Shown: one piece after another, positions 22,435 through 64,000 of the stretch
How the letters are laid out: the number at the start of each line of letters is the position of its first letter
How positions within the stretch are numbered: position 1 is the stretch's first letter
From: Sphingomonadales bacterium
Lineage (GTDB): Bacteria > Pseudomonadota > Alphaproteobacteria > Sphingomonadales > Sphingomonadaceae
Assembly: GCA_025356275.1 (NCBI GenBank)
Contig: JANXUK010000067.1
Coordinates: 4,526 to 68,525 of the forward strand
Reading direction: 5' to 3'
Length of the DNA stretch: 64,000 nt
Notes under the pieces: generated by a model
Database searches by the model: none
Told to the model about the DNA's origin: nothing
What the model saw: only the letters and a program-made list of their open reading frames with translations
Made by a program: the position numbers and the translations under genes

Positions 22435-22488
22435 ACCGGACCGGCATTCAGCCCAGGCGACATCTGGACTGAATGTTGGTCCGGTCTA
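22432..22488. repeat. 53-bp TA-flanked hairpin element (family D)
   Basis: TA-GACCGGACCggcattcag...ctgaatgttGGTCCGGTC-TA; left TA+G is the ruvX stop, right TA is shared with the next element. Confidence 0.75.
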
Positions 22489-22654
22489 GTGGATTGATTT
22501 TGACATTCGAGTCCCGCTTGCGGCAAAGGGCGCTTTCGAATGTCAAAATCGTAAAATCCACTAGAATCAAAATCTTCTAGTGGTGCGAAAAGATTCTGAC
22601 ATTCGAGCGCGACTTGGCCTCAAGCGGTATCGAATGTCAGAATCGGACCACTAG
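22486..22654 (-). mobile_element. CTAG-bounded double-hairpin MITE-like element, copy 1 (reverse orientation)
   Basis: CTAGTGGattgattttgacattcg...cgaatgtcagaatcggaCCACTAG; homologous to 45881, 52100, 54634, 63455. Confidence 0.85.
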
Positions 22655-24033
22655 CTTCCCAAGGCCCGGTAACACGCCACAATCGCGCTCGCCTCATCGG
22701 CCCTGGCCGCCGCCGCCTGCCCATCCGCAGCGGCGGCGGTTTCGGTTGCGGCAAGCAGCGCGTCGCGGCTGATCCCCCCCGCCGCATAGGCCCGCGCGGC
22801 AATTGCGGCGGCATCGGCGGCGGCGTGCCCGGCGCGCAGCATCATCGCTGCCCGCACATGCGCGGCGGCCAGCGCGGCGAAGCTGGTCTCCACATCGCCC
22901 GCGGCACGCAACACGGCGGCGCGATAGGCGGCCAGCGCCTCGCCCTCCCGCCCATGCGCGGCGCGAACCTCGGCGTCGATCCGCGCAAAATCGAACAGGC
23001 GCCAGCGCAGCCCCAGCACCGCCTGCGCGGCCAAGGCGTCGCCGCTGACCAGACTGGCCAGATGCGTGCTATCCAGCCCCAGCATGCCCGAGAGCGACAG
23101 TTTGGGGTAATATTCGGCCAGCGCCGCGCCCACCCCGGCATGCGCCGCGATCAGCCGCGCCTCGGCAGCGGCAACATCGGGGCGGCGGCGCAATACGTCG
23201 GCGGGCAAACCCAGCGCTGGGTCGGGGGCTTCGGTGACGGTGACAGGCGCCGCCAGTGCCGCGATGGCCAGCGACGGGCTCTGCCCGATCAGCACCGCGA
23301 TCCGGGCACGCTGGCCCTCGCTGGCCGCATCCAGTGCCGCCGCCGCCGCCTCGGCCTGCGCCAGCGCCACGATGCCGGGATCGAGCGCCTCGCGCGGGGC
23401 AGCGCCCGTCCGCACCCGCACCGCCATGATCGCCTGCCGCCGGGTCAGCGCCGTGACCCGCGCTCGCGCCGCTGCACCCTCCGCCGTCAGCCCGCGCCAC
23501 TGCAAATAGCTATCGGCCAGTTCTGCCGAAACCGCCAGCCGCGCTGCCGCCACCCCGGCCTCAGCCCCGGCAAGCTGCGCGCGCGCAGCCTCCTGCTGAC
23601 GCCGGATACCGCCCGCGAAATCGAGATCCCAGCTAAGCCGCCCACCGATCTGCTCCTCGCCAAAGCTGCGCGGGAAGGACGGGACATAGCGCGACAATTG
23701 CCCTGTGCCGGCGTCCAGTGTCTGGGTAACGCGCGCCGCATAGCCGCCAACATCTCCGCCCGGATAGCGCGCCGCCGCCGCGCCGCGCGCCGCGCCGCGC
23801 GCCTGATCAACCCGGGCCAGTGCCTGCGCGATGTCCAGATTGGCGGCGCCCGCGCGCGTCTCCAGCGCATCGAGCGCCGCATCACCAAAACCGCGCCACC
23901 ATTCGGTAGGCGCCGGCATGGTTCCCCCGGCGGCGCGCCAAGCCGACGCGATCGGCAATTCGGGCGCGCGATAAGCCGTGCCAGCGGTGCATCCGGCCAG
24001 CAGCACGACCCCGAGGACACAAGCGCGCTTCAT
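22651..24033 (-). CDS. RND efflux outer-membrane factor lipoprotein (NodT/OprM type)
   Basis: Lipobox LLAGC, SWDLDF, LRRRPDVAAAE, YYPKLSLSG. Confidence 0.92.
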   Translation of the reverse strand: MKRACVLGVVLLAGCTAGTAYRAPELPIASAWRAAGGTMPAPTEWWRGFGDAALDALETRAGAANLDIAQALARVDQARGAARGAAAARYPGGDVGGYAARVTQTLDAGTGQLSRYVPSFPRSFGEEQIGGRLSWDLDFAGGIRRQQEAARAQLAGAEAGVAAARLAVSAELADSYLQWRGLTAEGAAARARVTALTRRQAIMAVRVRTGAAPREALDPGIVALAQAEAAAAALDAASEGQRARIAVLIGQSPSLAIAALAAPVTVTEAPDPALGLPADVLRRRPDVAAAEARLIAAHAGVGAALAEYYPKLSLSGMLGLDSTHLASLVSGDALAAQAVLGLRWRLFDFARIDAEVRAAHGREGEALAAYRAAVLRAAGDVETSFAALAAAHVRAAMMLRAGHAAADAAAIAARAYAAGGISRDALLAATETAAAADGQAAAARADEASAIVACYRALGS

Positions 24034-27000
24034 GCCGCCTCCTCATCGGGCTTGGCCAGCAGCAGATACATCACCGGCGTCGCGATCCGCGACAGCAGCG
24101 TCGAGGAAATCAGCCCACCGATCAGCACAATCGCTACCGGCGCATAAAGCCCGCTCTTGTCCACCGCCAGCGGGATCATCCCTCCAATCGCGGTCACCGA
24201 CGTCAGGAGGATCGGCAGGAACCGCGCTTCGCCCGCCGCCTCGATCGCGGCGCGGATCGGCATGCCTTGCCGGCGCAATTGCTCCGAGAAATCGACCAGC
24301 AGGATCGAATTCTTGATCTCGATCCCGATCAGCGCGACCAGCCCGATGGTGGCGGTAAAGGACAGGGAATTGCCGGTGATCCAAAGCCCGATCACCCCGC
24401 CCAGGATTCCGAAAGGCGCGATCCCCGCCACCACCGCGACCATGCGGAACCGCCCAAACTCCAGCACCAGCACCGCCAAAATACCGAACGCCGCCAGCAG
24501 CAGCGTCGGCAGCAACCCGCCCAGGCTGCGGCTCTGCGCCTCGGCCTCGCCGCCCAGCGTCAGGTTATACCCGGGGGGCAGCATCACCGCGCTGCGCACC
24601 CGCGCCTCGGCATCGGCGGTAGCGCGGCTGGTCAGCACGCCGGGCCCGACATCGGCGGTGAGCGTGACCGAACGCAGGCGGTTGATCCGGTCGATCTCGG
24701 GCGGCCCCGATTCCAGCACCGGGCGCGCGATGGCCGACAATGGCACCGCATGGCCCGCGCTGCTCGGCACCTCGATCCGGTCCAGCGCCGCCAGCCGGTT
24801 GGCCCCGTCCATCGCCATGCGGACCTTGACCGGGAACGTATCGCCGTCCCCATCGCGAAAACTCGCCACATCGGCGCCCGACAGCGCCAGCTGCATGGTC
24901 TGGCGCAGGGCGCCTGCCCCGACCCCCAGACCCGCCGCCGCCGGCTCGTTGACCGCGAAATGCAGGTCAGTGCGCGGCTGGCGCAGCGGGTTGGTGATGT
25001 CGGTCAGGCCGGGCACGCGCTGCATCGCCGCCTCGGCGCTGGCCGCCAGACGGGTCAGCGTGGCAATGTCGCTGCCCGCGATGCGCAGCGCCACCGGCGC
25101 CTCGACCTGGGGGCCCTGGACGAATTTAACGATGCTGATCCGCGCCGCCGGGTAATGCGAAAACTGATCTCTCAGGCGCAGGATCACCGGATCGCGCGCT
25201 GCCGCCGCTGCCGGCGTCAGCCCCACCGCGACCTCGCCGAATTCCATGTCGGTCTCGTGCTGGCCGGCATTATAGTAGATCTGCGGATTGCCGCGCCCGG
25301 TATTGCCGATGGTCCATGCCACAGCCGGGTCACCCGCCAGATGCTGCTCGACATAGCGCACGGTTATATCGGTGCGGGCCAACGAGGCACCGCGCCCGGC
25401 ATCGATGCGGATCAGGAATTGCGGGGTCTCGGCGGCGGGGAACAGGCTGGTGCCGATCACCCTGACCAGCGGGATCGACAGCATCGTCAGCAGCAACAGC
25501 ACGGCCAGCGCCTTGCTCGGCCGATCGAGCGCGCGATGGAGCAGCGGCGCGTAAAAGCGGTGGATCGCCGCCGTGATGCCGCGCAGCATGCGGTTGCCCT
25601 CGGGGTGGCTTTCGGGCCTGAGGAACAGGCTGGCAGCCAGCGGGATCACGGTCAGCGACACCACCAGCGACCCCGCCACCGTGGCCAGCACCGCCACCGG
25701 CATCGAGCGGATAAACTGACCCGAAACATCGGGCAGCGCCATCAGCGGCAGGAAAGCAAATATCAGGCACAAGGTGCAGCCCACCACCGCCAGCGCGATC
25801 TGGCCGCTGCCAGCCACCACCGCGCGGCTGACATCGGGCTCGGCGCGCATCCAGCGCACGATGTTTTCGGTGACCACGATGGCGTCATCGACCAGAATAC
25901 CGAGCGACAGCACAAACCCCGCAATCGACAGCTGATTCAACGTATAGCCCAGCGCCCCCACCACGCTGACCCCGATCAGCAGCGACAGCGGGATCGCCAC
26001 CATCACCACCAGCGCCGCCCGCCCGCCCAGCGGCAACAGCGTGATGCACACCAGCCCTAGCGCGATCAGGAAATCCCGGCGCAGCGCGCCCATCCGCGCC
26101 GCCACATTATCGGCCTGGGCAAAGGGCCGCACCAGCCGCACCCCGCCGGGCAACGTCCGCTCGAAGCTGTCAAACGCAGCGGTCAGCGCGGTGTTGAGCT
26201 GGGCCACGTCCACCCCATCGGTCTGGCGCGCAGTCAGCAACACCGCGCGTTTGCCATCGTAACGGGTGATATGGTCGGCCTCGCCCAGCGCCCAATCGAC
26301 GATGGCGACATCGCCGACATGGAGCACAGCGCCATCGTGCGCGCGCACGGCCAGATTGCGCACCGCCGCGATGTCGCGATAGGCGCCGCCATATTGCACG
26401 GTGAAGGCGCGGGCGCCGGACTGGATGTCGCCGATCGGCCCTTCGCCGCCGCCGGCGCGCAAGGCCTGTGCGACCTCCGCCGGGGTAACGCCCAGCGCGG
26501 CAAGCCGCCCGAAATCGAGCGACACGCGCATCTCGCTGGGGGTGGCACCCCAATATTGCGCCTCGCGGATGCCGGGGATAGTGCCGATCTGCTCGCGCAG
26601 TTTCTGGGCCAGCTTCTCCAGCCGGCGCATCGGCAATGTATCGCTGACCAATGCCACCTCGACCACGGCGGCCAAGGTTGGCCGGGCATGATCGACCTGT
26701 AGCCGGGTCAGCGCGGCGGGGAGCCGGAGGCGCAATTGCGCGATCTCCCGCTGAAGCGCATCCTCGTCGCGGGCACCGCTGGAATTGTAGCGGAAATCGA
26801 CGGTAGTGGTCGATATGCCGCCCCGGCTTTGCGAACGCACCTCGCGCACGGCGTCGAGGCCATAGATCGCATCCTCGATGGGTTTGGTGACCAGTTCCTC
26901 GACCTCACGCGGGTCGGCGCCGGGCAGGACGGCGGTAATGTGGAACAGCGGGCTGTCGATCTGGGGGTCTTCGGTGCGGGGGATGCCGCGGAACGCACTG

Positions 27001-30640: not shown

Positions 30641-30649
30641 GGTAAATTA

Positions 30650-41788: not shown

Positions 41789-43118
41789 CCGCGCGGCCCT
41801 GAACGTCCCGAACCACGACGTTCCAGCGGTCGGGGCCGGTGCGCTGCATCGTCATCCAGCCGAAGCCGCCGACCCACGAACTGAACGCCGCGACCACCGC
41901 GCCGGGGGCCGGGCTGGCGCCGGGGGGTAGCTTGGCCGGCAGTTGCACGGTGTCCTCCTGCGTCCCCGAAAAGCCGGTGATGAATTGCGAGGGGTGTCCC
42001 GATGAAAAGCTGACCTGCTCCCACACATGGACATGGCCGGACAGGAGCAATTGGACATTGGCGGGGGCCATCGCGGGGTCGATGCTGCCGAAAGTGGCCG
42101 CCATTACGCGGTTGCCGGGGTCGAGCGCGACGACGCCATCTTTGGCAGTGTCGGTAAAGCCGAGCAGCGGCTGGTGGTTGGCCGCTATGTTATAGGATGC
42201 GCGAGCGGCCAGGGCAGCGTAATCGCGGTACATCTGCTGGAATTTGGCAAACTTTGGCGCGGTGGGTGATATAGCTCCATTTCCGGCAATCGACGTGTCC
42301 AGCATCAGCAATTGCGCGCGGCGCCCCAGCGGGATGGCGTAGGGTTCAGAATAATCGCCCACGCCGTCGTCTGCGGCGGCGTTGCAATCGCGGCCGGCCA
42401 CCAGCGCGCGCGGATCAAGAAAGCGCCACCAGCCCTGCCCGGCGCGCGCGCAACTCTCGTGGTTGCCGCGCGTCACGGCCCATGGCGCGGCGGCCAGCAG
42501 CGCCGCGGCGGGCGTGAAGAAATCGGCGTTCCACGCGTCCCAGCCATAGCCCCAGGCCGAGCCGGCGCATTGCGGCTGATCGGCGGGGCAGGCATTCTCG
42601 CGATACTCATAATCGCCGACATGGACCACCAGGTCAGGCTTCCACGCCGCCGCCGCCGCCGCGATACGCGCGAAGGGATAGGCGGCCGGGTCGCCACAGG
42701 CCTGCCACGCCTGATCGGCGCGCTTGAGCCGGCAGCCAGTATCGCCGATCACGACGATGCGGCGCACGTCCCGCGCTGGCAAGGGCAGGGGCATGCCGGC
42801 GATGCTGACATGATGCGCCGAATGCGGCAGCACCCGCTCGCAGGTCAGTACCGGAAAGGCCGAGGGCTTCGATTCGGCGGGGTCCGACTGGGTCGGGCGC
42901 AGCGCGATGGTTTCGGGCACGGCGCGCGGATGCATGATACGGCGCGCGCCGTCGATCCGGATAGCGGGGCAAGCGGGAGCGTCGGTGATCGCGCGGGCCA
43001 TCGCCGCGCCGTCCGGGCCCAGCACCACATAGCGGGCGATATGCGCCGAGGCCGGCATCACCGGCATCACTGTCGCCTGAACCAGCATGGCCCACAGATG
43101 TATCGCGTGCATCCGCAT
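41730..43118 (-). CDS. Exported calcineurin-like metallophosphoesterase
   Basis: GDTGC, HVGDYEY, RGNHE, NH, LSGHVH motifs; signal-peptide-like start; ATG 43118 with GAGG RBS. Confidence 0.88.
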   Translation of the reverse strand: MRMHAIHLWAMLVQATVMPVMPASAHIARYVVLGPDGAAMARAITDAPACPAIRIDGARRIMHPRAVPETIALRPTQSDPAESKPSAFPVLTCERVLPHSAHHVSIAGMPLPLPARDVRRIVVIGDTGCRLKRADQAWQACGDPAAYPFARIAAAAAAWKPDLVVHVGDYEYRENACPADQPQCAGSAWGYGWDAWNADFFTPAAALLAAAPWAVTRGNHESCARAGQGWWRFLDPRALVAGRDCNAAADDGVGDYSEPYAIPLGRRAQLLMLDTSIAGNGAISPTAPKFAKFQQMYRDYAALAARASYNIAANHQPLLGFTDTAKDGVVALDPGNRVMAATFGSIDPAMAPANVQLLLSGHVHVWEQVSFSSGHPSQFITGFSGTQEDTVQLPAKLPPGASPAPGAVVAAFSSWVGGFGWMTMQRTGPDRWNVVVRDVQGRAVNRCAIVGKVSHCDVARVL

Positions 43119-43166
43119 ATCTCGTTCCTCGGCTATGATCGCCCGCGTATCGCGGCCCCGCGTCAA

Positions 43167-43257
43167 TTTTGTGACAGGTGCGGCCGGCCCGCTGCCTTCA
43201 TACTGTCACCGAAACGCCATGCAAATGTCGTCAAACCATCGTCAAACCGTCAAACCG
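43167..43257. promoter_or_regulatory. Candidate Pho boxes (11-bp periodic direct repeats)
   Basis: ctgtcaccgaa/acgccatgcaa/atgtcgtcaaa/ccatcgtcaaa at 43203-43246 (+) and ctgtcacaaaa on - at 43167-43177. Confidence 0.55.
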
Positions 43258-43326
43258 CTAGGCCAATGCGCCCGGAACGGCGAGCCGCACCAAAGGTTGG
43301 GCGGTGGCCGATTCGGGGTTTGTACT

Positions 43327-45870
43327 ATGAGGAATTTCGTTCTTTCCGTGCTGTTGGCGGGCGCCAGTGTTGCCGCCATGGCCGCACCGGCCTTTGCCTC
43401 CGACGCCGCCGGCAGGGCCTCCGACGCCGCCGGCAGGGCCTCCGACGCCGCCGGCAGGGCCTCCGACGCCGCCGGTAAGGCCTCCGACGCCGCCGCCGGC
43501 AGGGCAGACGCAGCAGATGGCCCGATCACCAACAAGGACGATATCGTCGTCACCGCCACCAGGGTCAACCGCCAGACCCCGATCACCGCCTCGCTCCACA
43601 CGTTCGAGCCGCAGGCGATCGTCAGCCGCGCGATCATCGAGAACTCGATCGCCCCCACCGCCGATTACAGCCAGGTGATCCTGCTGACCCCGGGTGCCAG
43701 CCTGGCGCCGGGCACCGGCAATGGCGTTGGCCTGACCGATGCCAAGATCACCCTGCGCGGCTTCAAGGATGGCCAGTACAACATCACATATGACGGCATT
43801 CCGTTCGGCGATTCGAACGATCCGACCCATCACTCGACCTCCTATTTCCCCAATGGCACCTATGAACGCATCATCGTCGATCGCGGCCCAGGCAGCGCCA
43901 CCGACCTTGGCCAGTCGAGCTACGGCGGCAACGTCCATATCATCAGCCGCGAGGCGACCGATAGATTCTTCATGGAAGGCGAAGGAGTCTATGGCAGCTT
44001 TGATACCCAGTTGGAGCGTCTGACCGTCAATTCAGGCAGCATTGAGCGGCTCGGCGGGTTGAAGATCGTCGCGGCGGGCGAATACAAATATACCAAGGGC
44101 GCGCTGAGCAACGGCAGCGGGTGGTGGGCCAATGGCTTCATCAAGGCCGAATTGCCGCTGGGCAGCGATGCCAAGTTCAGCATCCTGGGCAATTACAACC
44201 AGAGCCTGTTCCACCAGTCGGACACCGGCGGCGCCACCACCCTGGCGCAGCAGGCGCTGTTCGGTCAGAATTTCGGCTTGGTCGATCCCGCGAATGCCGC
44301 CACCTCGGGCGATGTCGCGGCGCGTGCCGACTGGAACTGGCAGAACAAGACCACCGACATGGAGTTGGCGCGGCTGCAATGGAATGTGAACAGCGCGATC
44401 AGCATCGACAACAAGGCCTATACCTATTTCTACAAGAACTTCACGCTGTCCACGATCAACGATCCGGGCCTGTGCTCGCCGGTAGGCGGCGTGCTGGTGG
44501 AGACCGCGACCAGTTGCAGCGGCGCGCCCAATGGGCTGAAATCGTCCAAGGTCGCGCAGGTCAACCCGCTGACCGGGGTCCAGAATGGGGCCGGCGCCAA
44601 GCCGGTGCTTGTCGGCACCGCGACCTATCTGTCACCCGGCACCTTTGCCAATGGCCCGATCCTTCAGCTTAACGCCAACGATGTCCCCGGCTATACCAAA
44701 CTCAACCAGTATCGCACCTCGGGCGACATTCTGGAAGTGGATGTCCGCACCCACATCGGCACCGCCAAGATCGGCGCGTGGTATGAGCATTCGCAGTCGC
44801 ATCGCTATGGCTATGGCTATGATTTCACCCAGGCCTATAATGCCGGGGCGATCGGCAATTATCATTTCGACTTTGCCCAGGCGGCCAATTATTTCGACTA
44901 CTCGGAATTCAAGTACAACACCGCCCAGACCGAGCTGGACGGCAGCGTCACACCGCAATATCTGCGCTATGACGAGATCACCAGCTGGAACCAGATCCAG
45001 GGCTTTGCCGAATTCGAGCTGAAGGCGATGGACGACCGGCTGACCGTCACGCCGGGCGTCAAGGTGCAGAATTTTACCCGCTACACCAACACGCCGCTGG
45101 CGTCGCAGAGCACGCGCATCGGCATCAAGGCGCAGGAATCCTACAAGCCGACGCTGCCCTATTTCAGCGTCAACTTCCTCGCACAGCCCGACGTGGCGTT
45201 TTATGCGCAATTCGCCAAGGGCTTCATCATCCCGTCGCTGAGCAACAGCCTTGAGACGTCGGGCGCGAACAATGCCTTTGTGCCGCTCAACCCGCTGCCC
45301 ACCAAGACCTCCAACTATCAGGCGGGGATGGTCTATTCGGGCGACCGGGTGAACGTCGATGTCGATGGTTATTATATCGAGGCCAGCAATTCGACGACGG
45401 TGGACCCGACCAACAGCAACAACGTGATCGTCAGCGGCAACCCCGCGCATTATCGCGGCTTTGAAGGTCAGGTCAGCTATGTGTTCCTTCCGGGCCTGAC
45501 CGGGATCGTCAACGGCACGCTGATGGAATCGAAGGATGCTTTGACTGGCCTGTGGTTGACCAACGCGCCCAATTACACCGCTCTGGCGGGCCTCGTATAC
45601 AACACCGGACCGCTCAAGATCAGCTATCTGCACAAGTTCACCGGCCGCCAATGGGCCGATGCCGCCAACACCGTGCTGGTCGCGCCCTACAGCTTTGGCG
45701 TGCTGTCGGGCAGCGTGACGCGCGGGCGGATCACCGCCGGGGTCACGATCAACAACCTGCTCGACGATCAGGCGGTGGTGTCGCAGTCCGGCCTGTTGTC
45801 CAACCCCGCGACGCTGGTGATTTACCAGACGCGGCGCAGCTATCAGGCGCAGCTGAAGGTGCGGTTCTAG
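43327..45870 (+). CDS. TonB-dependent receptor
   Basis: Signal peptide to AFA, TonB box DIVVTA, plug RGF...YDGIP...DRGPGS, C-terminal QLKVRF. Confidence 0.95.
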   Translation: MRNFVLSVLLAGASVAAMAAPAFASDAAGRASDAAGRASDAAGRASDAAGKASDAAAGRADAADGPITNKDDIVVTATRVNRQTPITASLHTFEPQAIVSRAIIENSIAPTADYSQVILLTPGASLAPGTGNGVGLTDAKITLRGFKDGQYNITYDGIPFGDSNDPTHHSTSYFPNGTYERIIVDRGPGSATDLGQSSYGGNVHIISREATDRFFMEGEGVYGSFDTQLERLTVNSGSIERLGGLKIVAAGEYKYTKGALSNGSGWWANGFIKAELPLGSDAKFSILGNYNQSLFHQSDTGGATTLAQQALFGQNFGLVDPANAATSGDVAARADWNWQNKTTDMELARLQWNVNSAISIDNKAYTYFYKNFTLSTINDPGLCSPVGGVLVETATSCSGAPNGLKSSKVAQVNPLTGVQNGAGAKPVLVGTATYLSPGTFANGPILQLNANDVPGYTKLNQYRTSGDILEVDVRTHIGTAKIGAWYEHSQSHRYGYGYDFTQAYNAGAIGNYHFDFAQAANYFDYSEFKYNTAQTELDGSVTPQYLRYDEITSWNQIQGFAEFELKAMDDRLTVTPGVKVQNFTRYTNTPLASQSTRIGIKAQESYKPTLPYFSVNFLAQPDVAFYAQFAKGFIIPSLSNSLETSGANNAFVPLNPLPTKTSNYQAGMVYSGDRVNVDVDGYYIEASNSTTVDPTNSNNVIVSGNPAHYRGFEGQVSYVFLPGLTGIVNGTLMESKDALTGLWLTNAPNYTALAGLVYNTGPLKISYLHKFTGRQWADAANTVLVAPYSFGVLSGSVTRGRITAGVTINNLLDDQAVVSQSGLLSNPATLVIYQTRRSYQAQLKVRF
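43396..43503 (+). repeat. 21-bp in-frame tandem repeat (ASDAAGR x5)
   Basis: gcctccgacgccgccggcagg x3 exact, 4th ends taag, 5th has an extra gcc. Confidence 0.95.
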
Positions 45871-45880
45871 TGGTGCGGTT

Positions 45881-46049
45881 CTAGCGGTTCGTTTCCGACA
45901 TTTGCATCCCTTTCGACAAGGGCAGAGGCAAATGTCGGAAACATAAGAACCACAAGATATTACATTGTTTTTAATGAATTTTATGATTTTGACATTCGAA
46001 AGCACCCTTTGCCGCAAGCGGGACTCGAATGTCAAAATCAATCCACCAG
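45881..46049 (+). mobile_element. CTAG-bounded MITE-like element, copy 2
   Basis: ctagcggttcgtttccgacatttgc...gaatgtcaaaatcaatccaccag; preceded by a 13-bp duplication. Confidence 0.85.
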
Positions 46050-50067: not shown

Positions 50068-50979
50068 ATGATGCCGCCCGCGATCAGCGCTTATACCGAC
50101 CGCAGCTGGCGCAGTGCCGACGGGCTGTCGCTGCATTACCGTGAATATCCGGGCAGCGGCGGGGATGCGGCGCGACCCGTGGTGCTGTGCTTGCCGGGGC
50201 TGACCCGCAATGCCCGCGATTTTGCCGATCTGGCGGAGCATCTGGCCTCGCCTGTGGGTGGCGGGTGGCGGGTGCTGTGTGCCGAGATGCGCGGGCGCGG
50301 CAGCAGCGCCTGGGCAGCAGACCCGGCGACCTATACCCCGGCGCAGTATGTTGGCGATGTGCTGGCACTGATCGAACACGCGGGGCTGGCGCGGTTTGTC
50401 GCGGTCGGGACTTCGCTGGGCGGGTTGATGACTATGGCGCTGGCGATGATCTGCCCGGAGCGGCTGGTGGGGGCGGTGTTGAACGACATCGGCCCGGTGC
50501 TGGAGGCGGCGGGGCTGGCCAAGATCAGCGGCTATGTCGGGCGCGATCCGGTGTTTGCCGGGTGGGATGCAGCGGCGGCGGCTTTGGCCACCACGTTTGC
50601 GCCGGCCTTCCCGCGCTGGGGGCCGGCGGATTGGCTGGCGATGGCGCGGCGCGGCATGGATGAGCGCGCCGATGGCACCATCCGCTTTGCCTATGATCCG
50701 CGCATTGCCGAGCAACTGGCGGCGAGGGCCGCGACGGGGGCAGGGGCAGGGGCAGGGGTGCCCGATCTGTGGCCGGGGTTCGCGGCGGTGGGCCAAGTGC
50801 CGACGCTGCTACTGCGCGGCGCGCTGTCCGATCTGCTGTCGGCGGAGACGTTCGCGGCGATGCAGGCGCGGCTGCCGGACGCGGAGACGGTGACGATCGC
50901 GGATGTGGGCCACGCGCCCACCCTGGCCGAGCCCGAGGCGCTGGCCGCGATTGACCGCCTGTTGGCGCGGGTGAAATGA
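50068..50979 (+). CDS. Alpha/beta hydrolase
   Basis: PGLTRNARDF, GTSLGG nucleophile elbow, GHAP; ATG 50068 with AGGA RBS. Confidence 0.9.
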   Translation: MMPPAISAYTDRSWRSADGLSLHYREYPGSGGDAARPVVLCLPGLTRNARDFADLAEHLASPVGGGWRVLCAEMRGRGSSAWAADPATYTPAQYVGDVLALIEHAGLARFVAVGTSLGGLMTMALAMICPERLVGAVLNDIGPVLEAAGLAKISGYVGRDPVFAGWDAAAAALATTFAPAFPRWGPADWLAMARRGMDERADGTIRFAYDPRIAEQLAARAATGAGAGAGVPDLWPGFAAVGQVPTLLLRGALSDLLSAETFAAMQARLPDAETVTIADVGHAPTLAEPEALAAIDRLLARVK

Positions 50980-52103
50980 AGCTGCTCCACCTGCATTCGA
51001 GCTTTGCGCCCGGCGGCAAGGAGGTGCGCTGCGTCCAGCTGATCAACGCCTTCGGGCCGGGCGTGGAGCATAGTATCGTCTCTGCCATGTCCGGCGCGAT
51101 GGGCGCCGCCGCGCGGATCGACCCGACCATCACCTGCCATCTCGATACGCCCTTCCCCGCGATGCAGGGCCGCCCGACCCCGGCGCGGTTGCAGGCGATG
51201 GCGCAGGCGATGCGCGGCTTCGATCTGGTGCTGAGCTATAATTTCGGGGCGATGGACGGGGTGATGGCGCATACGGTGTTTGGCCGCGCGCTCGATCTGC
51301 CCCCGCTGGTCCACCATGAGGACGGGTTCAACGAGGATGAGGCCGAGCGGCTGAGCACGCGGCGCAACTGGTATCGCCGGCTGGGGCTGGGTCGGGCCTC
51401 CGCGCTGGTGGTGCCGTCGCGCCGGCTGGAGGCGATTGCGCTGGGGCCGTGGCATCAGCCGCCCGCGCGGGTGCACCGCATCGGCAATGGCATCGTCACT
51501 GGCGCCTATGCCGGGCGGCCGCGCCGCGATGCCCTGCCGCGCGTAATCAAGCGGCCGGGCGAGAAGTGGCTGGGCACGCTGGCTGGGTTGCGTGCCGTCA
51601 AGAACCTGCCCCGGCTGGTCCGCGCCTTTGCGCCGCTGCCGCCCGAGTGGCAGCTGGTGATCCTAGGCCAGGGGCCCGAGGCCGAGGCGATCCGCGCCGA
51701 GGCGCTGCGGCTGGGGGTGGCGCACCGGGTCCATTTGCCGGGCCATGTCGGCGATCCGGCCAAGGTCGTCGGCCTGTTCGACCTGTTCGCGCTATCGTCG
51801 GACAGCGAGCAATTCCCGATCTCGGTGGTGGAGGCCATGGCAGCGGGGCTCGCGGTAGCATCCACCGACGTCGGCGACGTGAGCGCGATGCTGGGGCCGG
51901 AGAATCGCGCATTTCTCGCCGCGCCCGGCGATGAGCCAGGGCTGACCGCGCATATCGCTGCACTGGCGGCAGACGAGGGCCTGCGGGCGCGGCTAGGCGG
52001 GGCCAACCGGGCGATCGCGCGCGCCGAATTCGACGAGGGGGCGATGGTGGCGGCCTATCGCGCGGTCTATGCCGGGGCGCTGGGGCTTAGCAGCTTTCCC
52101 TAG
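50976..52103 (+). CDS. Glycosyltransferase family 4
   Basis: KNLPRL, DLFALSSDSEQFPISVVEAMAAG. Confidence 0.93.
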   Translation: MKLLHLHSSFAPGGKEVRCVQLINAFGPGVEHSIVSAMSGAMGAAARIDPTITCHLDTPFPAMQGRPTPARLQAMAQAMRGFDLVLSYNFGAMDGVMAHTVFGRALDLPPLVHHEDGFNEDEAERLSTRRNWYRRLGLGRASALVVPSRRLEAIALGPWHQPPARVHRIGNGIVTGAYAGRPRRDALPRVIKRPGEKWLGTLAGLRAVKNLPRLVRAFAPLPPEWQLVILGQGPEAEAIRAEALRLGVAHRVHLPGHVGDPAKVVGLFDLFALSSDSEQFPISVVEAMAAGLAVASTDVGDVSAMLGPENRAFLAAPGDEPGLTAHIAALAADEGLRARLGGANRAIARAEFDEGAMVAAYRAVYAGALGLSSFP

Positions 52104-52271
52104 TGGTTCGTTTCCGACATTTGCGTCCATTTCGGCAAGGGCAGAGGCAAATGTCGGAAACATCAGAACCACTAGATATTATATTGTTTCTATTGGATTT
52201 TATGATTCTGACATTCGAAAGCCCCCCCCTTTGCCGCAAGCGGGACTCGAATGTCAAAATCAATCCACTAG
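52100..52271 (+). mobile_element. CTAG-bounded MITE-like element, copy 3
   Basis: CTAGTGGttcgtttccgacatttgc...atcaatCCACTAG. Confidence 0.88.
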
Positions 52272-52412
52272 GGTGTGTGGAGATTTGGCTCAGGCCGGAG
52301 CGAGAATAGCTGATTTGAGCGACCCGGAGCGCAGCGGGTTTCGGTACGTGAGCACCGGAAGCGCGCAATGCGGCTGTTCGGAGCCCGGCATCAGCCAAAT
52401 CACCACACACCC
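52271..52412. repeat. 142-bp element with ~20-bp terminal inverted repeats (family C), abutting copy 3
   Basis: GGGTGTGTGGagATTTGGCT...AGCCAAATcaCCACACACCC; core gacccggagcgcagc...tacgtgagcaccggaagcgc. Confidence 0.75.
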
Positions 52413-52505
52413 TGATGCGCGGTTGCAGTTGAAAACCCCGGCACTTGCGCTAAACAGCCCGGCGATGCCCGCCGCTTGCGCGCGCGATATTTGAAAGCTG
52501 ATAGT

Positions 52506-53282
52506 TTGGCCCTGCGTCCCGCCGCCCCCCGCTCCCAGGCCGACAAGCTCGCCCAGCGCGATGCCGCACAGCAGGATGTGTTCCTGCGCGAGGTCGACGA
52601 TGCGCTGCGCGAGGATGAGATGATGCGCGCCATCCGCCATTATGGCCGGGTGGCCGCGATTGTGGTCGCGGCGCTGTTGCTGGCGCTGGCAGGCTATCTG
52701 TGGTGGGGCAAGCACCGCGAGGATCAGGCAGCGACGCGGGCGGAGAATTTCACGCTGGCGCTCGATCAGCTGGACGCCGGCAATCTGGCGGCGGCCTCCA
52801 GCCAGCTTGCGCCAATCGCGGGCGACAGCGATGATGGCAGCCGGGCGGCAGCGAAGCTGCTCCAGGCCGATATCGCGCTGAAACAGGGCAGCAAGGATCA
52901 GGCGATCGCGCTCTATGCCGGCGTTGCGGCAGACAGCGCCGCGCCCCAGCCCTACCGCGATCTGGCGACCATCCGCGAAGTTGCCACCCGCTTCGACAGC
53001 ATGAAGCCCGAGGATGTGGTCGCCCGGCTGCGCCCGCTGGCGATACCCGGCGGCCCGTGGTTCGGTAGCGCCGGCGAGCTGCTCGGCATGGCCTATCTTC
53101 AGCAAGGCCACAAGGATCTGGCCGCGCCGTTGTTCGGCGCCATCGCCCGCGACAAGACCGTACCCGACAGTCTGCGCGCCCGTTGCCGCCAGATCGCCGG
53201 GCTGCTCGGCTTCGACGCGGTGGACGATGTCGCCCGTGACCATGCGGCTCCGGCTGGCACCCAAACCGATACACAAGGATAA
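52506..53282 (+). CDS. YfgM-like membrane-anchored TPR protein
   Basis: FLREVDDALREDEM..IRHYG, one TM, TPR-like helices; upstream of bamB-like gene; start uncertain (TTG 52506). Confidence 0.85.
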   Translation: MALRPAAPRSQADKLAQRDAAQQDVFLREVDDALREDEMMRAIRHYGRVAAIVVAALLLALAGYLWWGKHREDQAATRAENFTLALDQLDAGNLAAASSQLAPIAGDSDDGSRAAAKLLQADIALKQGSKDQAIALYAGVAADSAAPQPYRDLATIREVATRFDSMKPEDVVARLRPLAIPGGPWFGSAGELLGMAYLQQGHKDLAAPLFGAIARDKTVPDSLRARCRQIAGLLGFDAVDDVARDHAAPAGTQTDTQG

Positions 53283-54637
53283 TGCGCATGATGCGTCCCA
53301 CCTCCCCCCGGCTGCGCACCGCGCTGGCGGCTAGCCTTGCCCTGACGCTGGCGGGCTGTGCCGGGCACGGCATCGCGCGCAAGCCGCGCCCGACCACGCC
53401 GACGATCGGCAACCGTATCCCGATCCTCAGCCGGGTTGAGGGCGGCGCGCATGTCGATGCCGATCTGGCCAATGTCGCGGTGGTGCTGCCCCCCGCCGCG
53501 ATCAATGCCGATTGGGCCCAGCCCGGCGGCGGCGCCAACAAGAGCTATGGCAATCTGGCGCTCTCTGCCAAACCCGCAAAGCTGTGGACCGCGCAGATCG
53601 CCGGCGCCACCCCCCAGCGCCGGCTGGCCGCAGCCCCGGTGATCGGCGGCGGCGCGCTCTTCGTGATGGACACCAGCGGCGTGGTCCACGCGATGGACGC
53701 CGCCACCGGCAAGCCCAGATGGACGCACAGTTTTGCCCAGCCGGGCGAGGTGGAGGCAACCGTGTTCGGCGGCGGGGTCAGCTATGACAATGGCCAGATC
53801 TATGTGACCACCGGCTTTGGCGAGGTTGCCGCGCTCGATGCCACCACCGGCAAACAGGTATGGCGGGTGCGGCCGGCCGGGCCATTGCGCGGATCGCCCA
53901 CGGTGGCGTTCGGCGCGGTCTATGTGATGGCGCAGAATAATGAACTGCACGCGCTGAACACGCTGGACGGCGCCGAATTGTGGCAGGAAAGCGCATCGCT
54001 GGGCGAGGCCGGGGTGTTCGGCGTGGGCGCGCCTGCCGCCGGGCAGGGCACGGTGATCGCGGGCTATTCCACAGGCGAGCTGATCGCCTATCGCTATGAG
54101 AACGGGCGGCAATTGTGGTCGGATGCCCTGTCGCGCACGTCCCTCTCCACCACGGTGGGCGTGTTGACCGATATCGACGCCGATCCGATCATCGATCATG
54201 GCCGGGTCTATGCGCTGGGTCAGGGCGGGCGCATGGCCGCCTATGAGCTGGTCACCGGGCAGCGGATCTGGGAGCTGAACCTTGCCGGAATCTCGACGCC
54301 GGCGGTGGCGGGCGACTGGATATTCACGCTGACCGACGATGCCAAGCTGCTGTGCATCGCGCGCAGCACCGGCAAGGTGCGCTGGATCGCCCAGCTCGAT
54401 CAGTTCCACAATGCCCGCAAAAAGAAGGGCGCAGCGCTGTATTGGACCGGGCCGCTGCTGGCGGGCGACCGGCTGTGGGTCGGCAATTCCGAAGGCAATT
54501 TCTACGACGTCAGCGCGGCGGATGGCGCGGTGCACAGGTTCGCGGCGCTGGGCGGGGCAATGTCGCTGGCGCCGGTGGCGGCGGGCGGCATCCTGTATGT
54601 TCTGGACGACAATGGGCGGATCACCGCCTGGCGCTAG
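53282..54637 (+). CDS. bamB: BamB-like PQQ-repeat beta-propeller lipoprotein
   Basis: LAGC lipobox; repeated ALDA.TGK..W motifs. Confidence 0.85.
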   Translation: MRMMRPTSPRLRTALAASLALTLAGCAGHGIARKPRPTTPTIGNRIPILSRVEGGAHVDADLANVAVVLPPAAINADWAQPGGGANKSYGNLALSAKPAKLWTAQIAGATPQRRLAAAPVIGGGALFVMDTSGVVHAMDAATGKPRWTHSFAQPGEVEATVFGGGVSYDNGQIYVTTGFGEVAALDATTGKQVWRVRPAGPLRGSPTVAFGAVYVMAQNNELHALNTLDGAELWQESASLGEAGVFGVGAPAAGQGTVIAGYSTGELIAYRYENGRQLWSDALSRTSLSTTVGVLTDIDADPIIDHGRVYALGQGGRMAAYELVTGQRIWELNLAGISTPAVAGDWIFTLTDDAKLLCIARSTGKVRWIAQLDQFHNARKKKGAALYWTGPLLAGDRLWVGNSEGNFYDVSAADGAVHRFAALGGAMSLAPVAAGGILYVLDDNGRITAWR

Positions 54638-54801
54638 TGGTCCGATTCTGACATTTGGTGCCCTGTCCGATAGCGGGCATTCAAATGTCAGAATCTTTTC
54701 GGACCACTAGGAATATATGATTCTAGGGGATTTTACGATTTTGACATTTGCAGACCCATCCCATCCGCCGGGGGATGCAAATGTCAAAATCAATCCACTA
54801 G
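54634..54801 (+). mobile_element. CTAG-bounded MITE-like element, copy 4
   Basis: CTAGTGGtccgattctgacatttg...caaatgtcaaaatcaatCCACTAG. Confidence 0.88.
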
Positions 54802-60633: not shown

Positions 60634-60654
60634 GCCGCTGATCAGCGTCCGCCG

Positions 60655-60910
60655 TTGCGGTGGCCCCGGATCGGGCCGCTACTTCTGACTGATGTGCGCG
60701 GCAAGCAGCGCGTGGATGATCACCGTGTGTTGAGCGGGATCGTTCATGTCCTTCGCAGCGGTGACCGGTGGACAGATTGTGCTGATGTGTAGGGGCCGAA
60801 GAAGAAGCTGTATAATCGGTTTGTCCGCTGGTCTGAACGTGCAAAAACTTTATGCGCGCCATCAGCCTCGCCGCTGCCGTCATCTGATGCTGTAATGAGT
60901 CCGGACCCTA
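60655..60910 (+). mobile_element. Internally deleted IS5-family (IS427-like) remnant
   Basis: Manual translation WPRIGPLL.TDVRGKQRVDDHRVLSGIVHVLRSGDRWTDC..V*GPKKKLYNRFVRWSER fused to C-terminal NFMRAISLAAAVI*; ends tgagtccggaccc-TA. Confidence 0.8.
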
Positions 60911-61012
60911 ATAAGGTGCGACATCTGCCTTCCAGTAAGCGAATTTGCCGGATACGCTGCTGCGGGAACAAGGCAGCGCGTTTGTGTGACCAGCTGATTA
61001 TCCGGGCCAGCG

Positions 61013-61572
61013 ATGGCTGAGCGTTCTGGAGGGGCATCGCCGCCAAGTGGCTACGATTGTGGGGACCGGGCGACCCCGGTGCGATCGACCGGGTGATGCC
61101 CGTAGTTTACAGCGATCTGCGCCGACTGGCGGCATATTATTTGAACGGCAGCGATGGTGAGCGAACATTGCAACCGACCGCGCTGGTCCACGACGCTTAT
61201 CTGCGGTTCGGCGCGGCCAGGAAATATGATTGGCAGGGGCACGGCCAGCTCATCGCGGTGGTGTCCCGCTTTATGCGGAATATCTTGATCGATAACGCGC
61301 GGGCGCGCCGGGCCGCGAAGCGGAATCCGGCCGAGCTCGAAGCTTCTGAGGCCATCGGTGAAGACCTGCTCGATCTTCTGTCATTGGACGCTGCGCTTCG
61401 GCAACTGGAGAGCCTGCATCCCCGTCGCGCGCGGGTGGTTGAACTGCGTTTCTTCGGCGATCGTGATCTGGCGGAAGTCGCGGCGGTGCTCGAGGTCTCT
61501 TTGAGCAGCGTCGAGCGCGATTGGCGATTTGCCCGTGCATGGCTGCATGATCCTATGAATCCGACGCCGTGA
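61013..61572 (+). CDS. ECF-type sigma factor (TIGR02999-like); 5' end apparently frameshifted, in-frame TTG at 61057
   Basis: VYSDLRRLA, TLQPTALVHDAYL, RARRAAKR, VVELRFFG, VERDWRFARAWL; ATG 61013 is out of frame across a GGGG run. Confidence 0.85.
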
Positions 61573-64000
61573 CCCTGAGCCGTCAGGACAGAATCGAGGC
61601 AATTTTCGATTCGGCGACGGGCATTGACGTGCCTGAACGCGCATCATTCCTGGACCAGGCTTGTGGCGGAGATCTCGCGCTCCGCCGGGAAATCGAGCGA
61701 CTCCTGATGGCGGATGCGGTTACCGGCCAGGTGGACGGCTGGCAACGATCCGCGCTTAACCAGGAAGTTTGCGCGGAGCGAACAACACCTGATCGCCGGA
61801 TAGGCGAAGTGTTGGGCCGCTATCGGCTGACGGCCATCGTCGGCGGCGGCGGCATGGGCCGGGTCTATCGCGCGGTTCGCGCCGATGCGCAGTTTGAAAA
61901 GTCCGTCGCGGTCAAGCTCATCCACTCCCCGCTTGCCAGCGACGACCTTCAGGCGCGGTTTAAGGCGGAACGCCAGATTTTGGCCACGCTGGAACATCCC
62001 AATATCGCGCGTCTGCTTGACGGGGGTTTGACGGATGACGGGCTACCCTATCTGGTCATGGAGTTTGTCGAGGGCGTCCTCCCCGCCGATTATTGTTGTC
62101 AGCACGGGTTGGGCATGCGCGCCAAGCTGGCCTTGTTCCAACAGATCTGTGCCGCAGTCCATTACGCGCATCAGCATATGGTCATTCATCGCGACCTCAA
62201 ACCGGCCAATATTCTGGTCACCGCCGGGGGGGAGCCAAAGCTGCTCGACTTCGGCATCGCCAAGGTTCTGACGCCGCAGACAACCTATGATCCCGCGATT
62301 ACAAGGATGGACAACCGGCTCCTGACGCCCCGCTATGCGAGCCCGGAACAGATTCGTGGCGAGGCCATCACGACAGGCTCCGATGTCTTTGCACTGGGGG
62401 TCTTGGGGCATGAGCTGTTGACGGGCGCGTCGCCGTACCGCTACCTCACGGGCCATCCTCTCGCGCTGTTGAATGAAATCTGCTAGGAGGAGCCGGCACG
62501 GCCAGGTCGGCTGGAACCTGCTCTGCGCGGCGATCTTGACCGCATACTCCTCAAAGCGCTGAGCAACGGCCGAGTGAGCGATACGCCTCCGCCGCCCAGC
62601 TCTCGGATGATATCGGGCGGCACCTTGACGGCCTGCCCGTCGAAGCCCGGGGTCATGGGGTCGGCTACGTCACCGCCAAATTCGTGCGTCGCAACAAGGC
62701 ATTCGCCGCAGCTACGGTGATGATTGCGGTCGTGCTGATCGGCAGTCTGATTATGGTTGACCATGCTCGGCGGGGTGCGGAAACCCGGTTCAGGCAGGTC
62801 CATCGGCTCGCGCATGCGGTAATCTTCGATTATCAGGATGCCATTGCCGGACTGCCCGGCTCGACCCCGGTGCGCGCCAGGCTCGTCCAGGATGCGCTCG
62901 GTTATCTCGAAAAACTGTCGGCGGAAGCCAACACGCCCGATCTCGAGCGCGAAATCGTGGAGGGGTATACCCGCATCAGCAAAGTTCAGGGCGATTCCTA
63001 CGGCTCGAACCTGGGTGACACCGCCGGTTCGCTCGCCAGCATTCATCGGGCGATTGCTGCCTCCCAGCATCTGCTGGGCGCCGACCAGACTCCTGCTTCG
63101 TTGAAAGCGGCTGCGGACGCATTTTCGGTGCAGGCCTCGTTATTTTTCTCCAGCGGAAAGCTCGAAGCCGCAGCAGCCGACTATCGGACCGCGCTGGACC
63201 TGCGCAACCGGGCGGCCAAACCATCGCCCGGAGATATCGAGAATGCCCTCGCTCTTGCGGACATCGACACCCATCTCGGCGACCTCGATGGCGCCACCGG
63301 GTTGCAGAACCTTGGCCGCAGCAGGCAGGCAGCCGTGATGTACGGCCAGGCGGATGCGATCCTCACCAGCTTGCAGCAGCGATTTCCTGCCAATCTTGAG
63401 GTGACCCGCCAGCGGTTCGAAGTGCTGCTCCAGCGGAGCGAGGCGATTGCCAGCCTAGTGGTTCGTTTCCGACATTTGCATCCCTTTCGGCAAAGGCAGA
63501 GGCAAATGTCGGAAACCATAACAACCACTAGATATTATATTGTTTCTAGTGGATTTTTTGATTTTGACATTCGAAAGCACCGCTTTGCCGAAAGCGGGAC
63601 TCGAATGTCAAAATCAATCCACCAGGTCAGCCACAATCTTCACAAATCATGCGTGAGCAGGCTCTGGCTCAGATAGAGCAGATCGTGGCGGTTTCTCCGG
63701 AGGATACGGCGTCGCAGTTTGAGCTGGCGAATACCGAAAATCGCCTGAGTCACAGCCTGATCGATGCGCGGCAGGGAGTGGAGGCCGGACGGCACCTTGC
63801 CCGCATGGTTGCGATCCTCGGCGAGTTGGCCCGTGCCGATCCGAAAAACGCGCTTTACGAACGATCGCTGGGCGTATCGCAGATCGATTGGGGCACGGCG
63901 CTGCGTGTTTCGGGCGACCCCAGCGGCGCCTTGGCGCATGACCGCAAGGCGCTCGACATTGCCGGACACTTGCACGCCGCCGATCCGGCCAACGCCGATT
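61569..64000 (+). pseudogene. Ser/Thr protein kinase with TM and TPR region; three lesions; runs off window end
   Basis: GGGGMGRVY, VAVK, HPNIA, HRDLKPAN, DFG, TPRYASPEQ; TAG at 62484, -1 frameshift near 62562, MITE insertion at 63455. Confidence 0.88.
63455..63625 (+). mobile_element. CTAG-bounded MITE-like element, copy 5, intragenic
   Basis: CTAGTGGttcgtttccgac...atcaatccaCCAG inside kinase TPR region. Confidence 0.9.

What the first reader, a model, noticed from the sequence alone, without database searches (positions are those of the whole stretch)
22486..63625. Five copies of a ~170-bp CTAG-bounded double-hairpin MITE-like element
Seen: copies at 22486-22654, 45881-46049, 52100-52271, 54634-54801 and 63455-63625 (168-172 bp). 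Each is two ~75-bp hairpins, each framed CTAGTGG...CCAC(T/C)AG or a degenerate version, joined by an AT-rich spacer. A core like GATTYTGACATTYG occurs four times in alternating orientation, giving ~24-bp imperfect TIRs. Stems are conserved while loops vary, and two left-arm subtypes exist (copies 2,3,5 versus 1,4). There is no coding capacity. Known: IS630 duplicates TA with a CTAG preference, and some IS5-family members also target TA/CTAG. Inference: a high-copy non-autonomous element (about one per 13 kb here) with modular, exchangeable arms. I cannot match it to a named family.
Basis: partly seen in the sequence, partly recalled or inferred. Interest (0 to 1): 0.8.

Follow-up and report, generated by a model that had tools for sequence, protein, structure and literature searches.

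The report
Double-hairpin miniature transposon at CTAG sites
The five repeats are real copies of a small non-coding mobile element made of two 75-bp hairpins that lands on rare CTAG sites, often on stop codons; it is an ordinary kind of bacterial "junk" transposon, though this family is widespread in Alphaproteobacteria and apparently unnamed.

Summary
All five 168-172-bp copies exist at the stated coordinates and fold as two ~75-bp hairpins (DNA fold z = -8.8).

The genome holds 131 such loci with about 238 hairpin units of four types. Most are inward-facing dimers (A+B' 43, C+D' 40), with some hybrids, monomers and tetramers.

The ends are CTA|GTGG...CCAC|TAG. Thirty-five percent of loci use a terminal CTAG as a gene's stop codon, against 11.5% of background CTAGs. 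Orthologous sites in 12 relatives are empty. Removing 167 bp of copy 5 reopens a 551-codon frame.

One intact IS630-family element (IS870-like, its stop codon made by the CTAG target) lies in the same genome. It shares the first 14 terminal bases, and the element's arms match its inverted repeats as well as those repeats match each other.

Best reading (0.7): an IS630-derived MITE that duplicates TA within CTAG.

The same architecture occurs across many alphaproteobacterial genera, with compensatory stem changes. However, five of seven other carriers examined lack a matching transposase.

It is not Bru-RS1 and has no Rfam match; CIR and RIME could not be checked. This scan had already noted the family on other DNA.

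The parts
22486..22654 (.). Copy 1, a hybrid dimer A + C'. Hairpin 1 is 22486-22564, the spacer AATCAAAATCTT is 22565-22576, and hairpin 2 is 22577-22654. The right-hand CTAG (22651-22654) supplies the stop codon of the minus-strand ORF 22651..24033.
45881..46049 (.). Copy 2, dimer B + A', with degenerate ends (CTAGCGG ... CCACCAG). It lies 11 bp after the stop of ORF 43087..45870. A 14-bp tandem duplication of the flank/element junction precedes it.
52100..52271 (.). Copy 3, dimer B + A'. Hairpin 1 is 52100-52175, the spacer is 52176-52189, and hairpin 2 is 52190-52271. The TAG at 52101-52103 is the stop codon of ORF 50976..52103.
54634..54801 (.). Copy 4, dimer C-variant + D'. Hairpin 1 is 54634-54710, the spacer is 54711-54722, and hairpin 2 is 54723-54801. 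The TAG at 54635-54637 is the stop codon of the bamB-like ORF 53282..54637.
63455..63625 (.). Copy 5, dimer B + A', inserted inside a coding frame. The right-hand CTAG has decayed to CCAG. Removing 167 bp (the element plus one TA) joins ORF 62684.. to the downstream frame, giving 551 codons.

Best explanation
The element is a non-autonomous DNA transposon (MITE) of the IS630/Tc1-mariner kind.

The basic module is a ~75-bp near-perfect palindrome, essentially two copies of a ~27-bp terminal inverted repeat back to back around a variable loop. The usual mobile unit is a pair of two different modules facing each other across a 12-14-nt AT-rich spacer, about 168 bp in all.

A transposase supplied in trans would recognise the termini GTGG-N3-GAT-N3-GAC. 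It would cut the element out and paste it into the TA of a CTAG site, duplicating TA. Every copy therefore ends up as CTA|GTGG...CCAC|TAG. The candidate transposase is the IS870-like IS630-family enzyme, of which this genome keeps one intact copy.

The element begins with G, so an insertion into a C-TAG stop codon leaves that stop codon intact. CTAG is about 7-fold depleted in this genome. Together these explain why surviving copies pile up at gene ends and abut each other and other elements through shared CTAGs.

Shown: structure, copy number, CTAG flanks, stop-codon bias, empty orthologous sites, the frame interrupted by copy 5, end similarity to a resident IS630 member, and class-wide distribution.

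Inferred: that this transposase family mobilises the element, that the duplication is TA rather than CTAG, and that the dimer moves as one unit.
For: - Census: 131 loci and ~238 units, with dimers dominant and always inward-facing.
- CTAG scarcity: 1524 observed against ~10,300 expected. About 27% of all CTAGs lie in these arrays, and 374 of 418 CTAGTGG/CCACTAG heptamers lie in them.
- Target: CTAG at both ends in 65 of 94 internal loci. A terminal CTAG is the stop of a GC3-validated ORF in 33 of 94 loci, against 129 of 1119 background CTAGs.
- Empty sites: in 11 relatives and one metagenome contig the orthologous genes stop at the same residue with no element. Three of these carry CGCTAG at the bamB-like stop.
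- Conserved downstream motif: TTGAAA...GCTAAACA follows the stop directly once the inserts are removed.
- Copy 5: deleting 167 bp, which is not a multiple of 3, extends the ORF from 330 to 551 codons.
- Shared CTAGs: tetramers and the IS itself abut neighbours as CCACTAGTGG.
- Resident IS at C31:21718-22869: 1152 bp with a 359-aa transposase. It matches NF033545 IS630 at 256 bits and has DDE_3 plus HTH domains. Its TIRs begin CTAGTGGATTGATT, and its stop codon is the TAG of CCAC|TAG.
- That design is documented for IS870, which needs a CTAG target (Fournier 1993, cited in PMC13630536).
- End similarity: the element's outer arms match the IS repeats at 17-24 of 30 positions. By hand count from the sequences, the IS's own two repeats match each other at 22 of 30.
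- Recent activity: the C+D' family has median pairwise identity 96.4%, with 38 pairs at or above 98%, and half its copies break contigs.
Against: - No transposition was observed.
- The link to IS630 rests on end similarity of 60-80% beyond the first 14 nt.
- Five other carrier genomes (G005, G011, G019, G213, G167) show no IS630 member with CTAGTGG ends. None of 80 loci from other taxa has the transposase within 8 kb.
- The resident IS is single-copy.
- A plain TIR model does not require the inner arms to complement the outer arms. Yet 97% of stem positions pair, with compensatory changes across taxa.
- A TA duplication cannot be told from a CTAG duplication by sequence.
- All empty sites come from relatives only ~70% identical, not from sister strains.
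Confidence: 0.7

Rival explanations
1. The same kind of element, but mobilised by a different DDE transposase that also targets TA within CTAG/YTAR. Candidates are an IS5/IS427-group enzyme (as IS711 does in Brucella) or the IS481-like IS present here.
For: - The genome has a multi-copy IS whose ends abut CTAG (CTAG|GTGTTTGGTCCCGGCATTTGG) and whose transposase N-terminus looks IS481-like by my recollection. It also has DDE_Tnp_1 hits.
- IS711 duplicates TA at YTAR and prefers palindromic repeats (PMC2266754).
- Most carriers lack the IS630 partner.
Against: - The IS481-like ends share only a loose TGGTCC..GCATTTG resemblance with the element. They lack the GTGG-N3-GAT-N3-GAC skeleton that the IS630 repeats share over 30 nt, including 14/14 at the tip.
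- No IS5-type element with CTAGTGG ends was seen among the heptamer occurrences.
Confidence: 0.12
2. A REP/REPIN-like or PATE-like element moved as single-stranded hairpin DNA by a Y1 (HUH) transposase of the RAYT or IS200/IS605 type. It would insert 3' of CTAG without any duplication.
For: - Each module is a hairpin, and modules occur as inverted doublets like REPINs.
- Stem pairing is maintained by compensatory change: 97% canonical, 16 covarying pairs.
- Insertion 3' of CTAG by an element ending in CTAG would give the same junctions.
- The genome encodes Y1_Tnp proteins.
Against: - The Y1_Tnp genes belong to an ordinary IS200/IS605 element with its own, unrelated end hairpins. That element inserts 3' of TTGATT, so it uses the hairpin modules as targets, not as its ends.
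- No single-copy RAYT flanked by the modules was found.
- Modules are 75 bp, against 20-40 bp for REPs.
- The element is two-fold symmetric, as expected for TIR-based rather than strand-specific transposition.
- The tips are identical to an IS630 member's.
Confidence: 0.08
3. The element is primarily a host-selected structural element, kept for its fold rather than as a parasite. Candidate roles are a 3'-end RNA hairpin or terminator, or a CcrM (GANTC)-linked or protein-binding site.
For: - The two-hairpin architecture and pairing are conserved class-wide.
- Copies sit at gene 3' ends.
- Copies from other taxa carry 2-4 GANTC sites each.
Against: - There is no orientation bias relative to the upstream gene: A+B' 6 against B+A' 5, D+C' 3 against C+D' 2.
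- There is no IHF consensus in the spacer: 0 of 62 in this genome and 6 of 52 across taxa.
- The A/B family here largely lacks GANTC.
- Distribution is patchy: 4 of 24 congeners and 4 of 121 Caulobacteraceae.
- One copy interrupts a reading frame, and sites are empty in relatives.
- Rfam gives no match.
Confidence: 0.1

Closest known systems
IS870-like members of the IS630 family and their MITEs
   Same: - The target is CTAG.
- The termini are CTA|GTGG...CCAC|TAG.
- The IS's transposase reading frame is closed by the TAG of the target.
- The element's arms share the first 14 nt with the IS repeats and 17-24 of 30 positions overall.
   Different: - The element has no coding capacity.
- Each end is a complete 75-bp palindrome rather than a single repeat.
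- Most carrier genomes examined lack the IS.
- ISfinder could not be consulted.
Correia repeat-enclosed elements (CREE/NEMIS) of Neisseria
   Same: - They are small (~100-155 bp), high-copy, non-coding elements with long terminal inverted repeats.
- They have TA-flanked ends.
- The published repeat TATAGTGGATTAAC... (PMC5039591) shares TAGTGGATT with CTAGTGGATTGA here.
- By my own recollection, they have no resident transposase identified.
   Different: - They occur in a different class of bacteria.
- Theirs is one pair of repeats, not two separate hairpins.
- The central IHF site reported for Correia (from my own knowledge) has no counterpart here.
- The target here is CTAG rather than any TA.
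BIME / REPIN mosaics (REP doublets) and rhizobial RIMEs
   Same: They are intergenic mosaics of two different palindromes in inverted orientation with a short linker. They are often found between convergent genes and serve as landing pads for other IS elements (PMC1525189).
   Different: - REPs are 20-40 bp and depend on a RAYT. No RAYT was found here.
- RIME1 is 108 bp by my memory of Osteras 1995. That paper is not held, so the sequence was not compared.
Bru-RS1/Bru-RS2 of Brucella
   Same: They are palindromic alphaproteobacterial intergenic repeats with YTAR ends, and they are hot spots for IS insertion.
   Different: This was tested. The 104-bp element next to lldP in a 3.3-Mb Brucella-genus genome reads TTAGAGCGC...GCGCTCTAA and has no similarity to the element studied here. 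Ochrobactrum-type Brucella species carry the double-hairpin element as a separate family.

Membership tests
MITE (generic) | Short (<300 bp), non-coding, many dispersed copies | tested here: met
   Elements are 168-172 bp with no ORF. There are 131 loci in 3.18 Mb.
MITE (generic) | Terminal inverted repeats | tested here: met
   The outer arms CTAGTGG..GACATT and AATGTC..CCACTAG are inverted copies of each other.
MITE (generic) | Target-site duplication, with filled and empty sites | tested here: inconclusive
   CTAG flanks both ends in 65 of 94 loci. Orthologous sites in 12 relatives are empty, and three of them carry CTAG at the stop. Copy 5 excises cleanly in silico. Whether TA or CTAG is duplicated cannot be told.
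MITE (generic) | An autonomous IS with matching ends | tested here: met
   The IS630-family IS at C31:21718-22869 matches 14/14 at the tips and 20-23 of 30 positions overall. By hand count, that IS's own IRL and IRR match each other at 22 of 30.
IS630/Tc1-mariner-derived element | Insertion at TA, with a CTAG preference in the IS630/IS870 group | tested here: met
   The flanks are CTA|...|TAG. The IS870 precedent is cited in PMC13630536.
IS630/Tc1-mariner-derived element | Co-occurrence with the cognate transposase in carrier genomes | tested here: not met
   Only G000 and G020, of the 7 carriers examined, have an IS630 member with CTAGTGG ends. None of 80 foreign loci has it within 8 kb.
IS630/Tc1-mariner-derived element | Mobilisation by the transposase in trans | not testable with these tools
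   This needs a binding or transposition assay.
REP/REPIN-RAYT | A RAYT (Y1 HUH) gene flanked by the repeats | tested here: not met
   The five PF01797 hits are IS200/IS605 copies with their own end hairpins. They insert into the modules at TTGATT.
REP/REPIN-RAYT | 20-40-bp palindromes with a conserved GTAG-type foot | tested here: not met
   Modules are ~75 bp with CTAGTGG feet on both sides.
Bru-RS1 | Sequence identity with the 103-bp repeat next to lldP in Brucella | tested here: not met
   L175 3148-3251 is an unrelated TTAGAGCGC...GCGCTCTAA element.
[quoted passage not shown] | Sequence match to CIR1-4, up to 21 copies in C. crescentus, and a central GANTC | not testable with these tools
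   The paper is not held. Only 4 of 121 sampled Caulobacteraceae genomes carry the element, each with 6 or fewer matches. That argues weakly against identity.
RIME1/RIME2 | Sequence match to the 108/109-bp rhizobial elements | not testable with these tools
   The paper is not held. The size differs, by my memory of the abstract.
Any Rfam RNA family | Score at or above the gathering threshold | tested here: not met
   There were 0 matches in the window.

The most novel reading that the evidence does not exclude
The palindromy itself, not just the outer repeats, may be what is selected. This would make it a class-wide two-hairpin element whose stems are kept paired by compensatory change. One reason could be that the extruded hairpin or cruciform is the transposition substrate. 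Another could be that the transcribed hairpins act on neighbouring genes. Either way it would be a REPIN-like long-lived replicator of Alphaproteobacteria that uses a DDE rather than an HUH enzyme.
Probability: 0.15. Interest if true: 0.6.

Novelty: new member of a known kind. Interest (0 to 1): 0.3.

Why it matters
- **Assembly.** The element explains about a quarter of all CTAG sites and many contig breaks in this genome.
- **Neutral landing site.** Because the element starts with G, landing on a C-TAG stop codon preserves the stop.
- **Nesting platform.** The element serves as a landing pad for other mobile DNA.
- **Annotation.** The family is spread over many alphaproteobacterial genera, including rhizobia, Ochrobactrum-type Brucella and sphingomonads. 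I found no name for it in what I could search. A model of it would clean up annotation, including false small-RNA and terminator calls, and give a strain-typing marker.
- **Not a new mechanism.** It does not open a new kind of biology.

Tried and rejected
- **Terminator or RNA-stabiliser role selected by orientation:** there is no orientation bias relative to the gene whose stop is used.
- **IHF site in the spacer:** 0 of 62 here and 6 of 52 across taxa.
- **RAYT/REP model:** the Y1 transposases belong to an IS200/IS605 element that targets the hairpins.
- **Bru-RS1 identity:** a different sequence.
- **Rfam:** nothing.
- **Literature search for the element's own sequence strings:** no relevant paper.
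- **IS870, CIR and RIME papers:** not held.
- **Exact-protein look-up of the bamB-like gene for sister strains:** not on record.
- **Homologues spanning the copy-5 junction:** only ~30% identical TPR proteins of another architecture, so not decisive.
- **Search for a full-length IS carrying GACATT-type repeats:** none in this genome, in 80 foreign loci or on plasmids.
Full report
**Observation**

BLAST E-values between copies are 1e-64 to 1e-85.

Each copy reads CTAGTGG, stem, variable loop, stem, CCACTAG. A 12-14-nt AT-rich spacer follows, then a second hairpin of the same design. As single-stranded DNA, copy 3 folds into exactly these two hairpins. Its energy is -41.7 kcal/mol against -16.4 +/- 2.9 for 200 shuffles, z = -8.8. 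Rfam has no match anywhere in the window.

**Census in the whole genome**

The assembly is 3.18 Mb in 143 contigs at 65% G+C. The window is C142:4526-68525.

A BLAST census with four hairpin consensus sequences (A, B, C, D) finds about 238 units in 131 loci.

| Arrangement | Loci |
|---|---|
| A+B' dimers | 43 |
| C+D' dimers | 40 |
| A+C' hybrids | 5 |
| B+D' hybrids | 3 |
| Single hairpins | about 33 |
| Trimers and tetramers | 6 |

- In every dimer the two units face each other, with their 4-5-nt bulges on the inner side.
- The spacer type goes with the arm type.
- Window copies 2, 3 and 5 are B+A'. Copy 4 is a C-variant plus D'. Copy 1 is the A+C' hybrid.
- The C+D' family is the younger. 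Its median pairwise identity is 96.4%, 38 pairs are at or above 98%, and half its copies sit at contig ends.
- The A+B' family averages 92.3% pairwise identity.

**Target and consequences**

CTAG is about 7-fold under-represented: 1524 occurrences against roughly 10,300 expected. About 27% of all CTAGs lie within these arrays. Of the 418 CTAGTGG/CCACTAG heptamers, 374 belong to them.

- Of 94 loci away from contig ends, 65 have CTAG at both ends.
- In 33 of the 94 (35%), a terminal CTAG provides the stop codon of an ORF validated by length and GC3. The same holds for only 129 of 1119 (11.5%) CTAGs elsewhere.
- In the window this applies to ORFs 50976..52103, 53282..54637 and 22651..24033(-).
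- Because the element starts with G, an insertion at C|TA|G keeps the stop codon.
- Tetramers, and the IS described below, abut their neighbours as CCACTAGTGG. That is, they insert into the CTAG regenerated by an earlier insertion.

**Evidence that copies are insertions**

- The closest genomes available are only ~70-77% identical in DNA.
- In 11 of them the orthologues of the two genes above end at the same residue, with TGA, TAA or TAG, and run straight into unrelated sequence. Two have CGCTAG at the bamB-like stop.
- A syntenic metagenome contig shows the same empty CGCTAG.
- A motif conserved downstream in the relatives (TTGAAA...GCTAAACA) follows the stop codon directly in this genome. 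This holds once copy 3 and an adjoining 142-bp element are removed in silico.
- Copy 5 lies inside a coding frame. Deleting 167 bp (element plus one TA, not a multiple of three) extends the ORF from 330 to 551 codons. Homologues were too distant to confirm the junction.

**Candidate transposase**

The genome has six DDE_3 (IS630-type) matches. One is a complete 1152-bp IS at C31:21718-22869.

- Its repeats are CTAGTGGATTGATCGAGACGG... and CTAGTGGATTGATTCCAACG....
- Its 359-aa protein scores 256 bits on the NCBIfam IS630 model and has HTH and DDE_3 domains.
- Its reading frame is closed by the TAG of the flanking CCAC|TAG. This is the design described for IS870, which needs a CTAG target to make its stop codon (Fournier et al. 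1993, as cited in PMC13630536).
- The same IS subgroup, with the same ends, occurs in Sinorhizobium, Sphingobium, Polymorphobacter and a congener.
- The element's outer arms share the first 14 bases with the IS and 17-24 of 30 positions overall.
- Counted by hand from the sequences, the IS's own two repeats match each other at 22 of 30.
- A different 100-bp MITE with still closer ends sits next to the IS.

The IS is single-copy here.

**Weak points of that link**

Five other genomes that carry several copies of the element have no IS630 member with such ends. None of 80 loci from other taxa has the transposase within 8 kb. MITEs often outlive their parents, but the mobiliser remains an inference.

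**Distribution**

The named carriers include:

- Hyphomicrobiales: Bosea, Ochrobactrum-type Brucella, Bradyrhizobium, Ensifer, Mesorhizobium, Phyllobacterium, Methylocystis.
- Caulobacterales and allies: Asticcacaulis, Hyphomonadaceae, Parvularculaceae.
- Sphingomonadales: Novosphingobium, Sphingobium, Erythrobacter.

Nearly all show the same two-hairpin, ~168-bp layout with differentiated left and right hairpins.

Within groups the distribution is patchy: 4 of 24 congeners and 4 of 121 Caulobacteraceae.

In an alignment of 52 dimers, 45 stem pairs are 97% canonical. Sixteen pairs show repeated double-sided changes, while the loops vary freely. This pairing constraint exceeds what outer repeats alone need, and it is the basis of the more novel reading.

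**Rivals**

- **REP/RAYT-like mechanism.** This is unlikely. The Y1 transposase hits belong to an IS200/IS605 element with unrelated end hairpins, and it uses the modules as targets.
- **A host function selected by orientation.** Not supported. A spacer IHF site is also not supported.
- **Another TA/CTAG-targeting DDE enzyme.** This cannot be excluded. An IS481-like IS with CTAG flanks is present.

**Comparison with known families**

- **Bru-RS1.** It was located next to lldP in a 3.3-Mb Brucella-genus genome and is a different sequence.
- **Correia repeats.** The published repeat shares TAGTGGATT at the tip, but the architecture and the host differ.
- **CIR and RIME.** They could not be compared because the papers are not held.
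- **Literature.** No paper in the library prints the element's sequence.
- **Earlier notes of this scan.** They had already recorded the same family on other genomes.

**Verdict**

This is a real, well-delimited MITE family of the IS630/CTAG kind. It is ordinary in mechanism, tidy in its stop-codon behaviour, widespread, and apparently unnamed.

Noticed in passing
G000 contigs, e.g. C120:4207-4495, C58:10094-10600, C78:1-330, C24:1-330 (none in the window): This is an IS200/IS605-family element with a Y1_Tnp gene, frameshifted in C58, plus ~255-bp tnpA-less derivatives. All 20 left ends follow TTGATT or TTTATT with no duplication. Twelve of the 20 sit inside an A/D hairpin arm (CTAGTGGATTGATT|IS|TTGACATT). 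The MITE is therefore its preferred landing pad.
   Followed up: yes
window 52272-52413: A 142-bp element with inverted ends GGGTGTGTGGAGATTTGGCT...AGCCAAATCACCACACACCC starts right after the CTAG that ends copy 3. The same junction (CCACTAGGGTGTGT) recurs elsewhere, for example on contig C51.
   Followed up: partly
window 22432-22489: A 53-bp hairpin, TAGACCGGACCGGCATTCAG...CTGAATGTTGGTCCGGTCTAG, shares its right-hand TA/CTAG with copy 1. Its arms resemble the ends of the IS481-like IS noted separately (GGTCCCGGCATTTGG).
   Followed up: partly
G000 contig ends C10, C82, C97, C114 (one end); C90, C91, C125 (other end): A multi-copy IS has ends that abut CTAG (CTAG|GTGTTTGGTCCCGGCATTTGGTGG). 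Its transposase N-terminus (MGQILHGSARTTEAV...) looks IS481-like by my recollection. It is a second CTAG-targeting element in this genome.
   Followed up: no
window 45855-45884: A 14-bp tandem duplication spans the flank/element junction of copy 2 (GGTGCGGTTCTAGT GGTGCGGTTCTAGC). It leaves an extra CTAG, and the gene's stop lies in the first repeat.
   Followed up: no
G000 C6:36916-36938 and C83:50727-50755: These are 23-bp and 29-bp remnants (CTAGTGGTTCGTTTCTCCACTAG and CTAGTGGTTCGTTTTATAAGAACCACTAG). They look like hairpin cores deleted from full units, either by palindrome instability or as excision footprints.
   Followed up: no
G000 flanks such as C1:4565, C20:31770, C143:190; L128; L175 3148-3251: Several copies are followed at the shared CTAG by AGAGCAAGATGCGATTC... 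This resembles the TTAGAGCGC...GCGCTCTAA element found next to lldP in Brucella, which is probably Bru-RS1, and in Novosphingobium. It is another widespread repeat family that uses the same sites.
   Followed up: partly
window 62484-62486: An in-frame TAG, inside a CTAG, interrupts the Ser/Thr-kinase reading frame (…NEIC*EEPARPG…). The frame continues open beyond it. The kinase-TPR gene hit by copy 5 may already be a pseudogene.
   Followed up: no
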